Both the position numbers and the translations under genes were made by a program. The notes below the pieces were generated by a model. It had not been told where the DNA came from. It was given only the letters and a program-made list of their open reading frames with translations, and did not search any database. A stretch of DNA of 64,000 nt from a virus (lineage: Duplodnaviria; Caudoviricetes): IMG/VR virus record IMGVR_UViG_3300035208_002115; one strand, written 5' to 3'. Position 1 is the stretch's first letter; every line of letters starts with the position of its first letter. Shown here piece after piece: positions 2,452 through 28,899 of this stretch.

Positions 2452-3636
2452 GTGAAAGAAAGAAAACCAAAAGGTTATTGGACGTTTGAAAGATGTAAAG
2501 AAGAAGCACTTAAATATAATAAAAAAATAAATTTTAGAATAAATAATTGTGGATGTTATACTTACGCTTATCGTAGAGGGTGGTTAGATGATATTTGTCT
2601 ACATATGATTAAAAATACTTATTGGAATTATGAAAAATGTAAAGAAGAAGCTTTAAAATTTAAAACCAGAGCTGAATTTAGTAAGAAATCAGGTGGTGCT
2701 TATAATATGACATTTAAAATGAAATGGTTAGATGAAGTATGTTCTCATATGACTATTGAACATTTACCAAAAGGTTATTGGACTTACGATAAATGTAAAG
2801 TAGAAGCATTAAAATATAAAACCAAAAAAGAATTTGAAGAATATAATGCTTCAGCACTCACTATCGCAAGACGTAATGGTTGGTTAAAAGAGATTTGTGA
2901 ACATATGGTTAGTGTTGGAAATAAATATAAAAGGTGTATTTATTCTTATGAATTTTCAGATAATTATGTATATGTAGGTTTAACATATAATTTAACTGAA
3001 CGACACAATAATAGATTTTCTAAAAAAATAGATATTGTATATAAACATTATAATAAAACAGGTATTAATCCGATATTAAAACAATTAACAGAATACATAA
3101 CTGTGAAAGAAGCACGAGTATTAGAAGGTGTTTTTGTTGAGAAATATAAGTCAGATGGTTGGAACATTTTAAATATATATGATACTGGAGGAATTGGTGG
3201 TAATATTTTACACTGGTCTAAAGAAAAATGTATAGAAGCTATATTAAAATGTTCATCGAGAACTGAATTTAAAAATAAATATAGAGGCGCACAAAATTCC
3301 GCTTTTAAAAATAAATGGTATAAAGAGATAATTGAATTAATACCAAAAAATAAAAATATAAAATATACTAAAACAATTTGTTTAGAAAAAGCCATATTAT
3401 GTAATACTCGACAAGAATTTAAAAAACGATTTATCCACGAATTTAGCGTATCATATACAAATAAATGGTTAGATGATATATGTATACATATGGTAAGTGG
3501 TAGATTAAAATGGACTTACGATAAATGTAAAGAAGTATCATTATTATGTAAAAATAAACATGAATTAGAATTAAAATATAAAGGTGCGTATTGTTCAGCC
3601 CTCAGAAACAATTGGATAAATGAATTTTTTAAATGA
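2452..3636 (+). mobile_element. Free-standing GIY-YIG homing endonuclease with multiple (Y/K)WTxxKCKEEALK helical repeats
   Basis: CIYSYEFSDNYVYVGLTYNLTERH..LE = GIY-YIG core, flanked by ~6 repeats of WTYDKCKxEALKY...WLDxICxHM. Confidence 0.8.
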
Positions 3637-3642
3637 AAATAT

Positions 3643-4080
3643 ATGGATAAATGGAATTTTAGATTTATGGAACTTGCTAAAAATGTGAGTGGATGGTCAA
3701 AGGATAAAAGAACCAAAGTTGGTGCAGTTATAGTTTCTGGTAGAAATCCCATATCTTTGGGTTTTAATGGGTTTCCTGTTAGATGTGACGATAATATAGA
3801 AGAACGATACGACCCAAAAAATAAGTACTTCTGGACTCTCCATGCTGAATCCAATGCTTTAATCCAAGCTTGCAAGAATGGTCAAAAAACAGACGGATGT
3901 GATATATACGTTAATCTATTCCCCTGTGCTAATTGTGCAGGTTTGATTGTAAATGCTGGAATAAAAAGAGTATTTTGTGAAAAAGAACCAGATTTTAATC
4001 ACGAAAGATGGGGAGAAAGTTGGAAGATAGCGCACACTATTTTTACCGAAGCTAAAGTAGAAATCATTTATTTAGATTAA
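3643..4080 (+). CDS. cd: dCMP deaminase
   Basis: SKD..TKVGAVIV, GFNGFP, HAESNAL, PCANCAGLIVNAGIKRV zinc-deaminase motifs. Confidence 0.93.
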   Translation: MDKWNFRFMELAKNVSGWSKDKRTKVGAVIVSGRNPISLGFNGFPVRCDDNIEERYDPKNKYFWTLHAESNALIQACKNGQKTDGCDIYVNLFPCANCAGLIVNAGIKRVFCEKEPDFNHERWGESWKIAHTIFTEAKVEIIYLD

Positions 4081-8369: not shown

Positions 8370-8385
8370 TTTTATAAAAAATTAG

Positions 8386-8458
8386 CGAGCCAGACAGGAC
8401 TCGAACCTGCGACCAATGAATTTAAAGTCCATTGCTCTACCAACTGAGCTACTGGTTC
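8386..8458 (-). tRNA. tRNA with UUA anticodon (ochre suppressor), tRNA-Lys-like body, no encoded CCA
   Basis: GAACCAG TA GCTC AGTTGGTA GAGC A ATGGA CT-TTA-AA TTCAT TGGTC GCAGG TTCGAGT CCTGT CTGGCTC G; full cloverleaf with one A3.C70 mismatch; anticodon at 8425-8423. Confidence 0.92.
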
Positions 8459-26369: not shown

Positions 26370-26822
26370 TTATACACTTTTAAATTCGATAAATTCTAAA
26401 ATATTTTCATATATTAAAGAACTTCCAAATATTCCAACCAACGCAGAAAAAGTATCACATATAATATCATTCTTATCTTCCTCGGATATTTCATCCAAAG
26501 TATTTAATACAAATTCTATCTCATCATCATCAATGGAAGTAAAATCGGTAGGTAACTCTACATCTTCTATAATTTCTTCGGTTTCAATCTTACTAAAATA
26601 TTTATCCAAAAAATAATCATCTATTGTATTTTTTGCTATTTTGACTCTTATCAATACCAAATTGTTATCAACAACATCAGTTTCAATTATACCACCAAAA
26701 TAATCATCTATAAAATCGGTGATAATTTGATTAGAAAGACAGGAATTTCCAATCCCATTAATTGAATCTGACAATATACTAATTGAATTCTTTTTAAGAT
26801 AATCGGTATTTAATGTAATCAT
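26370..26822 (-). CDS. Acidic hypothetical protein
   Basis: ORF track; D/E-rich. Confidence 0.55.
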   Translation of the reverse strand: MITLNTDYLKKNSISILSDSINGIGNSCLSNQIITDFIDDYFGGIIETDVVDNNLVLIRVKIAKNTIDDYFLDKYFSKIETEEIIEDVELPTDFTSIDDDEIEFVLNTLDEISEEDKNDIICDTFSALVGIFGSSLIYENILEFIEFKSV

Positions 26823-26869
26823 AATTTAAATATAATTTTTAATAAATCATTTTTATATATAAATTAAAT

Positions 26870-27277
26870 ATGAGTTTAAATATGTCATTTATTAAAAATT
26901 ATAACATTTTTATAAACGAAAATATATCTGATGTTAAATTTATCAAACAATATATAGAAAAAACAAATCCACATACTGGTTCAAGAGATGCGTTTCAGGG
27001 AATAGGTCGTTTATCGGATTTTACTTGGAATGTTAAACAAACTTTAATTCAACCAGATGATAAAAAAATAGATTTGGATGATTTATATCCAGCATCTAAA
27101 TTAGATGTTAAGCGATATAAAAAAGCCTATTTAAAGGGGAGTGAATTTCCACCAATAGTACTGGTTGACAAAGGAAATAAATATACTATTTTAGATGGCG
27201 CACATAGATTGAAAGCTGCTATTGAATTGGATGTTCCAATAAGGGCATACATTGGTTATGAAATAAAAAATAAATAA
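26870..27277 (+). CDS. ParB/sulfiredoxin-like N-terminal domain protein
   Basis: FPPIVLV....YTILDGAHRLKAA. Confidence 0.75.
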   Translation: MSLNMSFIKNYNIFINENISDVKFIKQYIEKTNPHTGSRDAFQGIGRLSDFTWNVKQTLIQPDDKKIDLDDLYPASKLDVKRYKKAYLKGSEFPPIVLVDKGNKYTILDGAHRLKAAIELDVPIRAYIGYEIKNK

Positions 27278-27296
27278 TTTACATTTTTTAACATTT

Positions 27297-27372
27297 TTTG
27301 TCATTATGTCAGAAAAAGGTTTTATATTTGTCACGATTTATTAATTAAAACATTTTGGTACGAAATTCGTAC
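27297..27372 (+). promoter_or_regulatory. Bacteroidota-type promoter (TTTG...TATATTTG) plus palindrome GTACGAAATTCGTAC upstream of pth2
   Basis: TTTG 27297-27300; TATATTTG 27323-27330; palindrome 27358-27372. Confidence 0.55.
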
Positions 27373-27401
27373 ACAATAAAAACAAACAAAATTATTGCAT
27401 T

Positions 27402-27761
27402 ATGAAAGAAACATAAATTTACAACAGACTTTACGTAATCACTCGAAGTGATTTACATCCTTCTACTCAGGCGGTTCAAGCCATACATGCTGGTATTCAA
27501 TTTCAGCATGAACACCCAGAAATTTCAAAATCATGGAATGAATTATCTAATTATTTAGTCTTTTTGTCAGTTAATGACGAAAGGGAACTCCTATCTATTC
27601 ATTCTAAAGCAACTCAACAAGGTATTAAAGCGAGTGTTTTTCAAGAACCCGATTTGAATAATCAGGTTACTGCTATTACATTAGAACCAAGTTCTGATAC
27701 GAGAAAACTATGCTCTAATTTACCCTTGGCATTAAAAAACGTAAGTTTTAACAAAAATTAA
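27402..27761 (+). CDS. pth2: Pth2-family peptidyl-tRNA hydrolase with in-frame UAA at codon 5 (readthrough or AUU start required)
   Basis: MKET*IYNRLYVITRSDLHPSTQAVQAIHAGIQF...W...NYLVFLSV...FQEPDLNNQVTAITLEP...LPL; the ORF track captured only the C-terminal 65 aa. Confidence 0.8.
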
Positions 27762-27771
27762 TTTTAAAGTT

Positions 27772-27816
27772 ATGAAAGACACATAAATTTTCACACGAGG
27801 TTCACCAAGTCCATAG
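27772..27816 (+). promoter_or_regulatory. Leader minigene MKDT-UAA-IFTRGSPSP-UAG, in frame with the downstream gene
   Basis: TATGAAAGACACATAAATTT versus TATGAAAGAAACATAAATTT at the pth2 start (19/20 identical). Confidence 0.65.
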
Positions 27817-27888
27817 TTAAAAATTAGGATTTTGAACAAAAATTATTTAAACAAAAATTATTTAAAAACAAAAAACAAAAATTTAATT

Positions 27889-28350
27889 ATGGAAACATTA
27901 GTAAAAAATGACGTAAGATATTCAGTAAGTGCTGAATCTTTAACAGAAAGAATCAAAGAAAATGTTAATACAATCGATAGCTTTGTAAAGAAAAACGGTT
28001 ATCAGTTAACAAACATAACCGAATACAATAATAAATTAAAAGATAATAATTATCTTTTGGGTATTCAAGTATTAATTTCTAAATTATCTCTGAATCAGAG
28101 AAAAAAATTAAGGAATGCTATCAATAGGATTTTCAACAATCCAACTTTAAAAAATGTAAATTACTTTTTACATATTTTATATAGCAGAGTCTTAAAATCT
28201 GACCAGAGAGTTAAGATTAAAAAGAGCGAACAAGAATTAGCCATCGAAAAGGCCAGAAAGGATTGGAAACTATATAGAGATGAGGCCGAGAGATTGAGAT
28301 TAGCTTATAAAGAATTGAAAGGTGATTTCTACAAAAACAAAGTAAAATAA
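27889..28350 (+). CDS. Basic helical hypothetical protein downstream of pth2
   Basis: ATG 27889 (METLVKN); K/R-rich C-terminal helix. Confidence 0.65.
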   Translation: METLVKNDVRYSVSAESLTERIKENVNTIDSFVKKNGYQLTNITEYNNKLKDNNYLLGIQVLISKLSLNQRKKLRNAINRIFNNPTLKNVNYFLHILYSRVLKSDQRVKIKKSEQELAIEKARKDWKLYRDEAERLRLAYKELKGDFYKNKVK

Positions 28351-28449
28351 AATATTTATGCGTTGTAGAACCTATAAACACTATTTATCGATTGTAATAT
28401 CGATAAATAGCGTGATAAATAGAATTATCACCGAAATACGTGATAAAAT

Positions 28450-28477
28450 AAAAAGAGGGTTTTTGACCCTCTTTTTT
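28450..28477. terminator. Bidirectional intrinsic terminator
   Basis: AAAAAGAGGGT-ttttg-ACCCTCTTTTT. Confidence 0.75.
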
Positions 28478-28868
28478 ATTTCACTATTGTAAATTTACTT
28501 TTAATAGCTGAATCTATACCATCTAAAGAATTTTCACCACCAATAAGAATAAAAATTTTATTTTTCTTATTTATAATTTCAAGAGCATCATTTCTAACTT
28601 CAATATCTGCTTTATCAAATTCTTCGAATACATTAATATCATATTTTTTATAAACTCTTTCCAATTCTCCACCCATCAGCATACTAAGCCTTATGACACT
28701 ATATTTTTTTCCTAAATCTGATAATTTTTTATCCAACTTTGTTATAAGTCCAGTTCCAATTTTATTATAAACAAAAATAGGACTGGTTTTTTTATCTATC
28801 AAATTAATAATATCGTTTATTTTATTATCAGTTTTACTAAAGTCCTCAAAAAGTTTTAAATGTTCCAT
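28476..28868 (-). CDS. Degenerate AAA+-like domain protein with CTS-like N-terminus
   Basis: MEHLKLFEDF; broken Walker A (YNKIGTGLIT), FEEFDKAD Walker-B-like, DSAIKSKF. Confidence 0.45.
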   Translation of the reverse strand: MEHLKLFEDFSKTDNKINDIINLIDKKTSPIFVYNKIGTGLITKLDKKLSDLGKKYSVIRLSMLMGGELERVYKKYDINVFEEFDKADIEVRNDALEIINKKNKIFILIGGENSLDGIDSAIKSKFTIVK

Positions 28869-28899
28869 AATTATTTATTATTTTTTTTTTATATATTAA

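What the first reader, a model, noticed from the sequence alone, without database searches (positions are those of the whole stretch)
27402..27816. Candidate stop-codon-gated translation-rescue system: pth2 interrupted by UAA at codon 5, a cloned leader on the next gene, and a phage ochre suppressor tRNA
Seen: ATG AAA GAA ACA TAA ATT TAC... reads MKET*IYNRLYVITRSDL..QAIHA..EPDL..TAI..LPL, an otherwise intact Pth2-type peptidyl-tRNA hydrolase. No in-frame ATG/GTG/TTG lies between the UAA and the conserved N-terminal strand. The same 20-nt cassette (one change) recurs 370 nt later before the next gene, which argues against a random nonsense mutation. The same window encodes a UUA-anticodon tRNA (8386-8458), and both loci have host-sigma-type promoters. 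Established: Pth recycles dropped-off peptidyl-tRNAs, very short minigenes provoke peptidyl-tRNA drop-off, and early in-frame stops are used as sensors (prfB). Inference: Pth2 is made only when UAA is read through, i.e. when the suppressor is charged or release factors are limiting or attacked. This would be a feedback sensor of termination/tRNA status, possibly countering a translation-targeting host defence. Alternative: reinitiation at the AUU directly after the UAA, present in both cassettes.
Basis: partly seen in the sequence, partly recalled or inferred. Interest (0 to 1): 0.92.

Follow-up and report, generated by a model that had tools for sequence, protein, structure and literature searches.

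The report
Suppressor-tRNA-gated Pth2 module in phages
A giant phage keeps a stop codon at the fifth codon of its peptidyl-tRNA-hydrolase-like gene that only its own stop-reading tRNA should get past, and the same locked gene, its matching tRNA and a similarly locked mini-gene recur in over a hundred other phage lineages, which points to a long-sought target for such tRNAs.

Summary
pth2 (27402-27761) reads MKET-TAA-IYNRLYVITRSDL with no canonical start after the stop. A 21-nt cassette recurs at 27770 with one change, and a tRNA with anticodon UUA lies at 8385-8458 (minus strand).

The TAA is not an accident. Of 118 clusters of this Pth2 subfamily from phage and metagenome contigs, 115 carry an early in-frame stop: ATG, 0-9 further codons, the stop, then usually 3-7 codons before the conserved domain. 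The stop is TAG in 110 clusters and TAA in 5. The next base is A or G in 114 of 115.

A suppressor tRNA lies within 2.3 kb on the same strand in 82 clusters, and its anticodon matches the stop. CUA goes with TAG in 78 clusters. UUA goes with TAA in both cases where the tRNA is in view. No TAA gate sits next to a CUA tRNA.

Four complete huge-phage genomes, including this 675-kb one, otherwise use the standard code.

The second cassette starts a stop-gated micro-ORF (27772-27816) that ends in Pro-stop. Its 3' end pairs with the start codon of the next gene, like a leader-peptide attenuator. Thirty-one other lineages have such a micro-ORF.

No paper in the searchable library describes this. The biological purpose, the residue inserted and the enzyme's activity remain untested.

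The parts
27402..27416 (+). Gate of pth2: ATG AAA GAA ACA followed by in-frame TAA (27414-27416). The next codon is ATT, so the base after the stop is A.
   Evidence: The same ATG + few codons + stop layout occurs in 115 of 118 homologue clusters.
27402..27761 (+). pth2: a Pth2-fold gene readable in full only if TAA 27414-27416 is decoded. The terminal TAA is at 27759-27761, and a second in-frame TAA follows one codon later.
   Evidence: Pfam PF01981 36.9 bits. phrog_1866 E 1.9e-14. Profile match to PDB 1rzw and 2zv3 at E about 7e-8 over the whole length.
27772..27816 (+). Stop-gated leader micro-ORF MKDT-TAA(27784-27786)-IFTRGSPSP-TAG(27814-27816). Its first 15 nt are the repeated cassette.
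   Evidence: Thirty-one other distinct loci have an equivalent micro-ORF, gated by the same stop type as their pth2 and ending in [RK]..P(P/T) before a stop.
27810..27821 (+). 5' arm of the predicted helix: UCCAUAGUUAAA, which is the last Pro codon, the terminal stop and 5 further nt of the micro-ORF region.
   Evidence: MFE fold. Duplex -12.1 kcal/mol against -3.2 for a shuffled partner.
27882..27893 (+). 3' arm of the predicted helix: UUUAAUUAUGGA, which contains the AUG (27889-27891) of the downstream gene.
   Evidence: The matched-versus-mismatched duplex test gave p=3e-8.
27889..28350 (+). Downstream gene (153 aa, METLVKNDVR...) of unknown function, the presumed target of the gated leader. 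Its family has a conserved C-terminal EYKxEKGDFYK.
   Evidence: The family was found behind pth2 in 16 loci and aligned. No Pfam or PHROG match. The all-helical model has pLDDT 82 and no PDB fold match.
8385..8458 (-). Ochre suppressor tRNA with anticodon UUA, the only suppressor among the genome's 40 tRNAs. It lies 19 kb from pth2 on the opposite strand.
   Evidence: ARAGORN. Rfam RF00005 68.3 bits. The anticodon loop CUUUAAA was read.

Best explanation
The TAA at codon 5 of pth2 is a selected, programmed stop-codon gate. Full-length Pth2-like protein is made only when the phage's own ochre suppressor tRNA (anticodon UUA, 8385-8458) decodes that TAA. Otherwise ribosomes release the tetrapeptide MKET.

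This copy belongs to a widespread phage module with three parts: (i) a suppressor tRNA, (ii) a Pth2-fold gene with an early stop cognate to that tRNA, and (iii) often a micro-ORF gated by the same stop type. The micro-ORF ends in Pro(-Pro)-stop, and its 3' end base-pairs with the start region of the next gene. A ribosome reaches that helix, and probably lingers there, only after read-through. That would free the downstream start codon, as in leader-peptide translational attenuation.

On this reading the suppressor tRNA acts as a trans-acting inducer of a few genes in an otherwise standard-code genome, not as a genome-wide recoder.

Shown here: the conservation of the gate, the match between stop type and anticodon, the linkage to the tRNA, the standard code of the genomes, and the predicted helix. 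Inferred: actual read-through, a pause at Pro-stop, and unmasking of the start codon. Most speculative: that the point of the gate is to scale a rescue or recycling activity to how active the suppressor is.
For: 1. The stop is conserved. Of 178 loci (118 clusters at about 90% identity) of this Pth2 subfamily, 115 clusters have ATG, 0-9 further codons, an in-frame stop, and usually 3-7 codons before the conserved KLxVITRRDL. The stop is TAG in 110 and TAA in 5. Only 7 of 115 have any other in-frame stop in the gene body.

2. The context fits read-through. The base after the stop is A in 90 clusters, G in 24, C in 1 and T in none. This matches what I recall about contexts that favour nonsense suppression.

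3. The tRNA is linked. A suppressor tRNA lies within 2.3 kb in 82 clusters, always on the same strand, at a median offset of +682 nt.

4. Stop type follows the anticodon. TAG goes with CUA in 78 clusters. TAA goes with UUA in L285 and in this genome. One TAG gate sits next to a UUA tRNA (L277), which wobble would allow. No TAA gate sits next to CUA. L285 (TAA, UUA) and its sister L250 (TAG, CUA) have similar tRNAs at similar positions. The TAA lineages are scattered among TAG ones in a quick tree: 5 changes on the tree, and well-supported branches force at least 2.

5. The genomes use the standard code. Greedy code-11 ORFs cover 93.0% of G000, 92.0% of LR756500, 94.2% of LR756501 and 92.9% of LR756504. 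Reading any stop as sense does not improve this. In G000, TAA ends 868 of 1131 ORFs. Cross-genome tblastn finds almost no other in-frame stops in conserved genes.

6. pth2 is the only G000 gene with a long start-less in-frame extension behind a mini-ORF.

7. The leader is supported. Thirty-two distinct loci have the gated micro-ORF. The duplex between its 3' end and the next gene's start region averages -10.2 kcal/mol. Mismatched locus pairs average -5.5, shuffled partners -4.0 and random 25-mers from the same locus -4.9 (Mann-Whitney p=3e-8). On an alignment, 74.5% of helix cells pair against 35-53% for slid controls, and 7 pairs show changes on both sides. In G000 this micro-ORF is the best genome-wide candidate for such an element.
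Against: In this genome the tRNA is 19 kb away on the other strand, unlike the usual tight linkage. An ochre suppressor should also read through the TAA that ends 77% of this phage's genes, so it must be weak or tolerated, and that cost is unexplained. ATT follows the stop in 75 of 115 clusters, so reinitiation at AUU cannot be excluded for those. The residue aligned with the catalytic Lys of archaeal Pth2 is Thr here and Tyr in the family consensus, so the 'rescue' role of the protein is uncertain. The helix evidence is computational only. RNAalifold on a MAFFT alignment found no consensus structure, single folds have weak z-scores (-1.6), and related loci are not independent. The TAA-UUA match rests on two lineages, because the other three TAA contigs are too short to show a tRNA. 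Some relatives keep the tRNA adjacency without any gate (L305/L309, L014, Lak-B1), so the gate is not obligatory.
Confidence: 0.75

Rival explanations
1. Termination-reinitiation. The 2-5 codon mini-ORF is translated and terminated, and the ribosome restarts at the adjacent AUU (or AUA). Pth2 would then begin at that codon, independent of any suppressor tRNA. The tRNA linkage would reflect shared tRNA-related function only.
For: ATT follows the stop in 75 of 115 clusters, and ATA or ATC in 5 more. Both window cassettes have TAA-ATT. The hosts may lack Shine-Dalgarno-dependent initiation, since the leaders are A-rich.
Against: Thirty-five of 115 clusters have codons after the stop that are not known start codons: GTA 15, GTT 8, AAC 3, AGC 2, ACT 2, and AAT, ACG, ACA, CTT and GGC once each. 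This model does not explain why the stop type tracks the anticodon of the neighbouring tRNA. It does not explain why TGA is never used as the gate, or why the micro-ORF uses the same stop type as pth2.
Confidence: 0.1
2. The stop is merely tolerated. Because a suppressor tRNA sits next door, a nonsense codon in a dispensable N-terminal tail drifted in and persists, perhaps acting as a genetic lock that keeps tRNA and gene together. It would have no regulatory meaning.
For: The gate lies in a variable, probably unstructured N-terminal tail whose length and sequence differ between clusters. Ungated copies next to suppressor tRNAs exist (L305/L309, L014, Lak-B1).
Against: Drift should give a mix of sense and stop codons. 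Instead 115 of 118 clusters keep a stop across proteins only 45-65% identical, always early and followed by A or G in 114 of 115. A second, independent gated element, the micro-ORF with its conserved helix, accompanies it in 32 lineages.
Confidence: 0.1
3. Pseudogene or assembly error. The TAA is a random nonsense mutation (CAA to TAA) or a sequencing error in this genome.
For: The whole pth2 region (window 26746-28897) is absent from the two closest genomes, G003 and G004, so the gene is accessory. rtcB in the same genome has a TAG that its relatives lack.
Against: The stop position is conserved in over 100 lineages. The other 114 codons are intact and keep every invariant family residue. The same TAA recurs in the second cassette. 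Four other lineages also use TAA.
Confidence: 0.03
4. Genome-wide recoding. The phage reads TAA (or TAG) as an amino acid in many genes, like code-15 or code-4 phages, and pth2 is just one of them.
For: A suppressor tRNA is present. Low GC (27%) is typical of recoded phages and their relatives (bioRxiv 10.1101/2021.08.26.457843).
Against: Code-11 coverage is 93.0% and does not rise with TAA, TAG or TGA read as sense. TAA terminates 868 of 1131 ORFs. tblastn against three related genomes finds a single other conserved in-frame stop, in rtcB. There is no RF-1 domain gene.
Confidence: 0.02

Closest known systems
Stop-codon recoding by phage suppressor tRNAs (code 15 TAG=Gln, code 4 TGA=Trp; Lak, crAss-like and other gut phages; bioRxiv 10.1101/2021.08.26.457843)
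   Same: A phage-encoded suppressor tRNA decodes in-frame stops in phage genes, the genomes are low in GC, and in-frame stops are proposed to hold back expression until the tRNA acts.
   Different: Here the genomes are standard-code overall. The in-frame stops are confined to pth2, a leader micro-ORF and at most a few other genes. The gate sits at a fixed N-terminal position and the tRNA is physically linked to it. An ochre (TAA/UUA) version exists. That paper does not contain the word 'hydrolase'.
Leader-peptide translational attenuation (ermC, cat, secM-secA, tnaC type; recalled from the literature, not tested here)
   Same: A short upstream ORF is followed by a helix that sequesters the start region of the downstream gene. 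One arm of the helix lies at the leader's 3' end, and a Pro-stop ending is the kind known to slow termination.
   Different: Access to the stall or unmasking site is controlled by an internal stop codon in the leader. The presumed inducer is therefore a suppressor tRNA rather than an antibiotic, an amino acid or secretion status. I know of no described leader of that kind.
Lambda bar minigenes and Pth (2-3 codon ORFs whose peptidyl-tRNA drop-off is toxic when Pth is limiting; recalled). Early drop-off is recycled by Pth (PMC10192219, abstract seen).
   Same: Very short ORFs (M-K-stop, M-T-stop, MKET-stop) are tied to peptidyl-tRNA hydrolase biology.
   Different: Here the mini-ORF is in frame with, and fused to, the hydrolase gene itself, and it is paired with a cognate suppressor tRNA. 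No toxicity or drop-off was tested.
prfB (RF2) autoregulation by an early in-frame UGA
   Same: An early in-frame stop in a translation-factor gene acts as a sensor of decoding capacity.
   Different: prfB uses a +1 frameshift. Here the domain continues in the zero frame, and the escape route is a dedicated tRNA.
Jumbo-phage Pth2 genes and orphan suppressor tRNAs (Iyer et al. PMC7824862; XacN1 PMC5852040; Atu_ph07 PMC6102473)
   Same: Pth2 and suppressor tRNAs are both recorded in large phages.
   Different: Those papers list them separately. The XacN1 authors state that they could not identify genes targeted by its amber suppressors. XacN1's own Pth2-like domain is not gated.

Membership tests
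Pth2 peptidyl-tRNA hydrolase (Pfam PF01981) | Sequence match to the family model above the curated cut-off | tested here: met
   36.9 bits against a cut-off of 23, covering residues 5-94 of the protein and positions 3-102 of the 115-position profile.
Pth2 peptidyl-tRNA hydrolase (Pfam PF01981) | Full-length likeness to solved Pth2 structures | tested here: met
   The family profile A1 matches 1rzw, 2zv3, 1q7s and 24bt at E 7e-8 to 5e-7 over nearly the whole chain. This is by sequence only; no fold comparison was run.
Pth2 peptidyl-tRNA hydrolase (Pfam PF01981) | Catalytic Lys in the G-K motif after strand 1 (role recalled from work on archaeal Pth2) | tested here: not met
   The aligned residue is Tyr in the subfamily consensus (PGYQAVQ against RGKLAVQ) and Thr in the window protein (PSTQAVQ).
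Pth2 peptidyl-tRNA hydrolase (Pfam PF01981) | Catalytic Asp in the D-A-G motif (role recalled) | tested here: inconclusive
   It aligns with Glu77 of an invariant E-P-D motif. An acidic residue is kept, but it is not Asp.
Pth2 peptidyl-tRNA hydrolase (Pfam PF01981) | Hydrolysis of peptidyl-tRNA | not testable with these tools
   Needs an enzyme assay.
Alternatively coded (stop-recoded) phages | Low coding density under code 11 that is restored by reading one stop as sense | tested here: not met
   G000 coverage is 0.930 under code 11, 0.928 with TAG as sense, 0.920 with TGA and 0.918 with TAA. Three relatives behave the same way.
Alternatively coded (stop-recoded) phages | Phage-encoded suppressor tRNA cognate to the recoded stop | tested here: met
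   tRNA(UUA) at 8385-8458. tRNA(CUA) sits next to TAG-gated pth2 in 78 clusters.
Alternatively coded (stop-recoded) phages | Many in-frame stops, enriched in structural and lysis genes | tested here: not met
   Only pth2, the micro-ORF and rtcB were found in G000.
Leader-peptide translational attenuator | Short ORF just upstream of the regulated gene | tested here: met
   The micro-ORF at 27772-27816 ends 72 nt before AUG 27889. The distance is 46-117 nt in 27 of 30 loci where a downstream start was assigned.
Leader-peptide translational attenuator | Helix between the leader's 3' end and the downstream start region, conserved with compensating changes | tested here: met
   Matched and mismatched duplex energies differ at p=3e-8. 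74.5% of helix cells pair against 35-53% for slid controls, and 7 pairs changed on both sides. RNAalifold found no consensus on the MAFFT alignment.
Leader-peptide translational attenuator | Ribosome pause at a defined leader codon that opens the helix | not testable with these tools
   Inferred only, from the conserved Pro(-Pro/-Thr)-stop ending in 32 of 32 loci. This needs toeprinting or ribosome profiling.
prfB-type frameshift autoregulation | The functional product requires a +1 shift at the early stop | tested here: not met
   The conserved domain is in the same frame as the ATG.

The most novel reading that the evidence does not exclude
In standard-code phages, suppressor tRNAs are not relics or precursors of recoding but dedicated trans-acting translational inducers. 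Each switches on a small, physically linked 'suppressor regulon'. One member is a Pth2-fold enzyme gated by an early cognate stop. Another is a further gene controlled by a new kind of leader-peptide attenuator, whose internal stop codon makes it sense the suppressor tRNA. Ribosome arrival, and perhaps a pause at Pro-stop, would then unmask the downstream start codon. The ochre (TAA/UUA) form in this 675-kb phage would be a natural, repeatedly evolved switch of the module's codon specificity.
Probability: 0.5. Interest if true: 0.9.

Novelty: new variant of a known kind. Interest (0 to 1): 0.85.

Why it matters
Suppressor tRNAs are common in large phages that otherwise use the standard code, and their targets have been an open question. 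The XacN1 authors searched for targets and found none (PMC5852040). This analysis names a conserved target, the Pth2-like gene. It also names a second one, a gene behind a stop-gated leader ORF. The stop type changes together with the tRNA anticodon across more than a hundred lineages.

If read-through is confirmed, several things follow:
- It would show a tRNA used as a gene-specific inducer.
- It would add a new input (a suppressor tRNA) to leader-peptide attenuation.
- It would suggest how genome-wide recoding could begin, from a small gated regulon.
- It would correct systematic mis-annotation. Gene callers truncate these genes or read them with code 15; examples are pT24 BPT24_235 and database proteins flagged 'with_TAG=Q'.

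The module could also serve as a compact, orthogonal translational switch. A cultured phage, Tenacibaculum phage pT24, carries the TAG form, so the idea can be tested directly.

Tried and rejected
- Genome-wide TAA, TAG or TGA recoding: rejected from ORF coverage and stop usage.
- A genome-wide cassette or promoter motif: the 21-nt cassette occurs only twice in the window and in the genome. Looser ATG-NNN-TAR-ATT matches are mostly out-of-frame hits inside genes.
- Other start-less genes behind mini-ORFs in G000: none convincing.
- A release-factor gene in G000: none (PF00472).
- Known RNA families around pth2: only a sub-threshold snoRNA hit.
- RNAalifold on a MAFFT alignment of 20 leaders: no consensus structure. 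The helix register differs between lineages, so I used per-locus duplex energies and a named helix instead.
- Function of the downstream gene: no Pfam or PHROG match, no ESM Atlas hit, and no PDB fold match at E<=0.001.
- rtcB as a second conserved gate: rejected. The TAG at G000 196138 is GAA in the two closest genomes.
- Common ancestry of all module suppressor tRNAs: their bodies are heterogeneous. The window tRNA resembles bacterial tRNA-Lys only from my memory. It is about 70% identical to several of the phage's own tRNAs (Tyr, Lys, Asn, Thr), so the inserted residue is unknown.
- The careful maximum-likelihood tree did not finish, so a quick tree was used.
Full report
**What is in the window**

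From 27402 the plus strand reads ATG AAA GAA ACA TAA ATT TAC AAC AGA CTT TAC GTA ATC ACT CGA, which is MKET*IYNRLYVITRSDL. The frame stays open to TAA at 27759-27761. The first canonical start after the stop is TTG at 27564, which would leave only a 65-residue C-terminal fragment.

The 114 residues after the stop match Pfam PTH2 at 36.9 bits against a cut-off of 23. They also match phrog_1866 and solved archaeal and human Pth2 chains.

The 21-nt cassette TTATGAAAGAAACATAAATTT (27400) recurs at 27770 with one change. Chance predicts 0.06 matches.

A tRNA with anticodon UUA lies at 8385-8458 on the minus strand (ARAGORN; Rfam 68.3 bits). The promoter claim was not confirmed.

**The genome**

The window lies in a single 675,678-bp virus contig with 27.4% GC and 40 tRNA genes. 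Only one of these is a suppressor.

The genome uses the standard code. A greedy set of code-11 ORFs covers 93.0% of it, and reading TAG, TGA or TAA as sense does not help. TAA ends 868 of 1131 ORFs.

pth2 is the only gene with a long start-less in-frame extension behind a mini-ORF. No RF-1 domain gene is present.

**Relatives carry the same gate**

The closest GenBank hits are huge uncultured phages: LR756500, LR756501/503 and LR756504. All carry ATG, one codon, TAG, then ATT at the start of pth2.

Proteins from the large database read 'MKQI...' only because they were translated with TAG as Gln. Others were truncated to an internal start.

I then collected 160 more loci from IMG/VR and JGI metagenomes. 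At least 367 and 374 confirmed stretches exist in those two collections.

Of 118 clusters at about 90% identity, 115 share one layout:
- ATG plus 0-9 further sense codons, most often one.
- An in-frame stop.
- Usually 3-7 codons, then the conserved KLxVITRRDL.

The stop is TAG in 110 clusters and TAA in 5: this window, L285, L291, L263 and L296. Only 7 of the 115 have any other in-frame stop in the gene body. A TAG used merely as a Gln synonym would not give that pattern.

The base after the stop is A in 90 clusters, G in 24, C in 1 and T in none. This is the order I recall for contexts that favour nonsense suppression. The codon after the stop is ATT in 75 clusters. In 35 it is not a known start codon.

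**Link to the suppressor tRNA**

A suppressor tRNA lies within 2.3 kb of pth2 in 82 clusters. It is on the same strand in all 82, at a median offset of +682 nt. Most clusters without one are on short contigs.

The anticodon follows the gate:

| Gate | Linked anticodon | Cases |
|---|---|---|
| TAG | CUA | 78 clusters |
| TAA | UUA | L285 (+1792 nt) and this genome (19 kb away) |
| TAG | UUA | 1 (L277; wobble would allow this) |
| TAA | CUA | none |

The five TAA lineages are scattered among TAG lineages in a quick tree. The tree needs five changes, and well-supported branches force at least two. L285 (TAA, UUA) is sister to L250 (TAG, CUA), and their tRNAs are similar and similarly placed.

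**Complete relatives also use the standard code**

I fetched three complete relatives whole.

| Genome | Size | Code-11 ORF coverage | Suppressor tRNA |
|---|---|---|---|
| LR756500 | 462 kb | 0.920 | one CUA, about 0.8 kb downstream of pth2 |
| LR756501 | 735 kb | 0.942 | two tandem CUA, 2.1 kb downstream |
| LR756504 | 636 kb | 0.929 | one odd tRNA whose loop contains CUA |

Reading a stop as sense gives no gain in any of them. Cross-genome tblastn finds almost no other in-frame stops in conserved genes. These tRNAs therefore serve very few codons.

**The second cassette is a gated leader ORF**

The second cassette is the start of a micro-ORF at 27772-27816, MKDT-TAA-IFTRGSPSP-TAG. Thirty-one other distinct loci have an equivalent just after pth2. 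In each:
- The gate is the same stop type as in that locus's pth2.
- Three to fourteen codons follow, ending in [RK]..P(P/T). Examples are MK*IYRPP*, MKH*INRPP*, MN*IIRGPT* and MKET*IHIRPP*.
- A terminal stop follows, which is TAA in 30 of the 32.

In the window's lowest-energy fold, 27810-27821 pairs with 27882-27893. The first arm holds the last Pro codon, the terminal UAG and five more bases. The second arm holds the AUG at 27889 of the next gene.

The same arrangement appears in most other loci, with different helix sequences. Duplex energies between the leader's 3' end and the next gene's start region were compared in 30 distinct loci:

| Pairing | Mean energy (kcal/mol) |
|---|---|
| Same locus | -10.2 |
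| Mismatched loci | -5.5 |
| Shuffled partner | -4.0 |
| Random 25-mers, same locus | -4.9 |

The same-locus and mismatched sets differ at Mann-Whitney p=3e-8.

On an alignment, a named 14-pair helix has 74.5% of cells paired, against 35-53% when the partner is slid. Seven pairs changed on both sides. RNAalifold on the same alignment found nothing, so this evidence is moderate. Within G000 this micro-ORF is the top genome-wide candidate for such an element.

A ribosome that stops at the gate should not reach the helix. One that reads through ends on Pro-stop, on top of the 5' arm. That is the logic of leader-peptide attenuation, with a suppressor tRNA as the inducer. This step is inferred, not shown.

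The gene behind the leader (27889-28350) belongs to a family found behind pth2 in 16 loci. It has no known family or fold match.

**What the protein is**

By sequence it is a member of the Pth2 fold family. However, the position aligned with the Lys of the G-K motif in archaeal Pth2 is Tyr in the subfamily and Thr here. The Asp position is an invariant Glu. The catalytic roles of these residues are from my memory. The name 'peptidyl-tRNA hydrolase' is therefore provisional. The enzyme might act on another blocked or charged tRNA, possibly the suppressor itself.

Ungated copies still sit next to suppressor tRNAs:
- L305/L309, GC 57%, with UUA.
- L014, GC 41%, with UCA.
- Lak-B1, with UUA.

The protein-tRNA link is therefore older or broader than the gate.

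**How it most likely works**

- Shown by comparison: the gate is selected, and it is coupled to a cognate, linked suppressor tRNA in genomes that otherwise use the standard code.
- Inferred: translation of Pth2 and of the leader's distal part is proportional to suppressor activity. The distal leader then opens the start site of the next gene.
- Speculative: the purpose is to scale a recycling or rescue activity to the amount of read-through. tmRNA genes lie in or near the module in LR756500, L004 and L316/L318, which fits this loosely.

The cost of an ochre suppressor in a genome that ends most genes in TAA is unexplained.

**Rivals**

- Reinitiation at AUU explains two thirds of the lineages at best, and it does not explain the match between stop type and anticodon.
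- Neutral tolerance does not explain the near-universal retention, the fixed position and the sequence context.
- A pseudogene or sequencing error is excluded by the conservation, although reads could not be checked.
- Genome-wide recoding is excluded by coding density.

**Novelty**

Searches of about 8.4 million papers and preprints found no description of a gated Pth2 or of its link to suppressor tRNAs. The main recoding paper does not mention a hydrolase. Jumbo-phage surveys list Pth2 and suppressor tRNAs separately. The XacN1 authors report that they could not find targets for its suppressors. Subscription journals are not covered, so prior description cannot be ruled out.

I class this as a new variant of a known kind: phage suppressor-tRNA recoding combined with leader-peptide attenuation. 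A cultured phage, Tenacibaculum phage pT24, has the TAG form. Its annotation truncates the gene, which makes the idea directly testable.

Noticed in passing
G000 196069-197454 (outside the window; locus L334:1582-2955, TAG at L334:1639-1641): The phage's RtcB RNA-ligase gene has an in-frame TAG at codon 20. It is 58% identical over 458 aa to the LR756501 homologue. The two closest genomes (G003, G004) have GAA at that codon, so the stop is specific to this lineage. It could be a fresh nonsense mutation, an error, or a stop tolerated through wobble reading by the UUA tRNA.
   Followed up: partly
L331 (Tenacibaculum phage pT24, LC168164.1) 2947-3900; tRNA at 384-458: This cultured phage has the TAG-gated form (MK*ITKNSN...KFRIITRSDL). 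The Pth2 domain is fused to a C-terminal extension of about 170 aa. The annotated CDS BPT24_235 starts downstream of the gate. tRNA-Sup(CUA) lies 2.6 kb upstream on the same strand.
   Followed up: partly
W01 = LR756500.1 94511-94921 (minus); L004 1286-1646; L316/L318 about 2.1 kb upstream of pth2: Phage-encoded tmRNA genes lie in or near the pth2/suppressor neighbourhood in several relatives. ARAGORN found none in G000.
   Followed up: no
L305/L309, L014, L333 (Lak-B1): Ungated pth2-like genes still sit beside suppressor tRNAs. The tRNA is UUA immediately after pth2 in a GC-57% phage, UCA (opal) 0.8 kb downstream in L014, and UUA 0.6 kb upstream in Prevotella phage Lak-B1.
   Followed up: partly
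window 26746-28897: The block holding the 135-aa gene at 26870-27277, pth2, the micro-ORF, the downstream gene and the minus-strand ORF at 28476-28868 has no counterpart in the two closest huge-phage genomes. Their matches to the two flanks are not collinear. G004 nevertheless has a homologous tRNA(UUA) at its contig start.
   Followed up: partly
window 27358-27372 and 27323-27330: A perfect hairpin, GUACGA-AAU-UCGUAC, lies in the presumed pth2 5' leader. A TAnnTTTG-like box (TATATTTG) lies about 70 nt upstream of the ATG. Neither was tested.
   Followed up: no
loop between leader micro-ORF and next gene in L313, L270, L308, L290, L265, L320, L325, L204: Many leaders carry an internal hairpin with a recurring GACA...UGUC core inside the long-range helix. 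The window copy lacks it.
   Followed up: no
W01 = LR756500.1 about 112684 (minus), 0.85 kb upstream of its pth2: A small conserved gene has an in-frame TAG aligned with Trp in its LR756504 homologue. It may be another member of the gated set in that phage.
   Followed up: no
LR756501.1 688258 (L002 1594-1596): The pth2 of the 735-kb phage has a second in-frame TAG, again followed by ATT, inside the conserved EHPE region. It aligns with Glu in the window protein.
   Followed up: no
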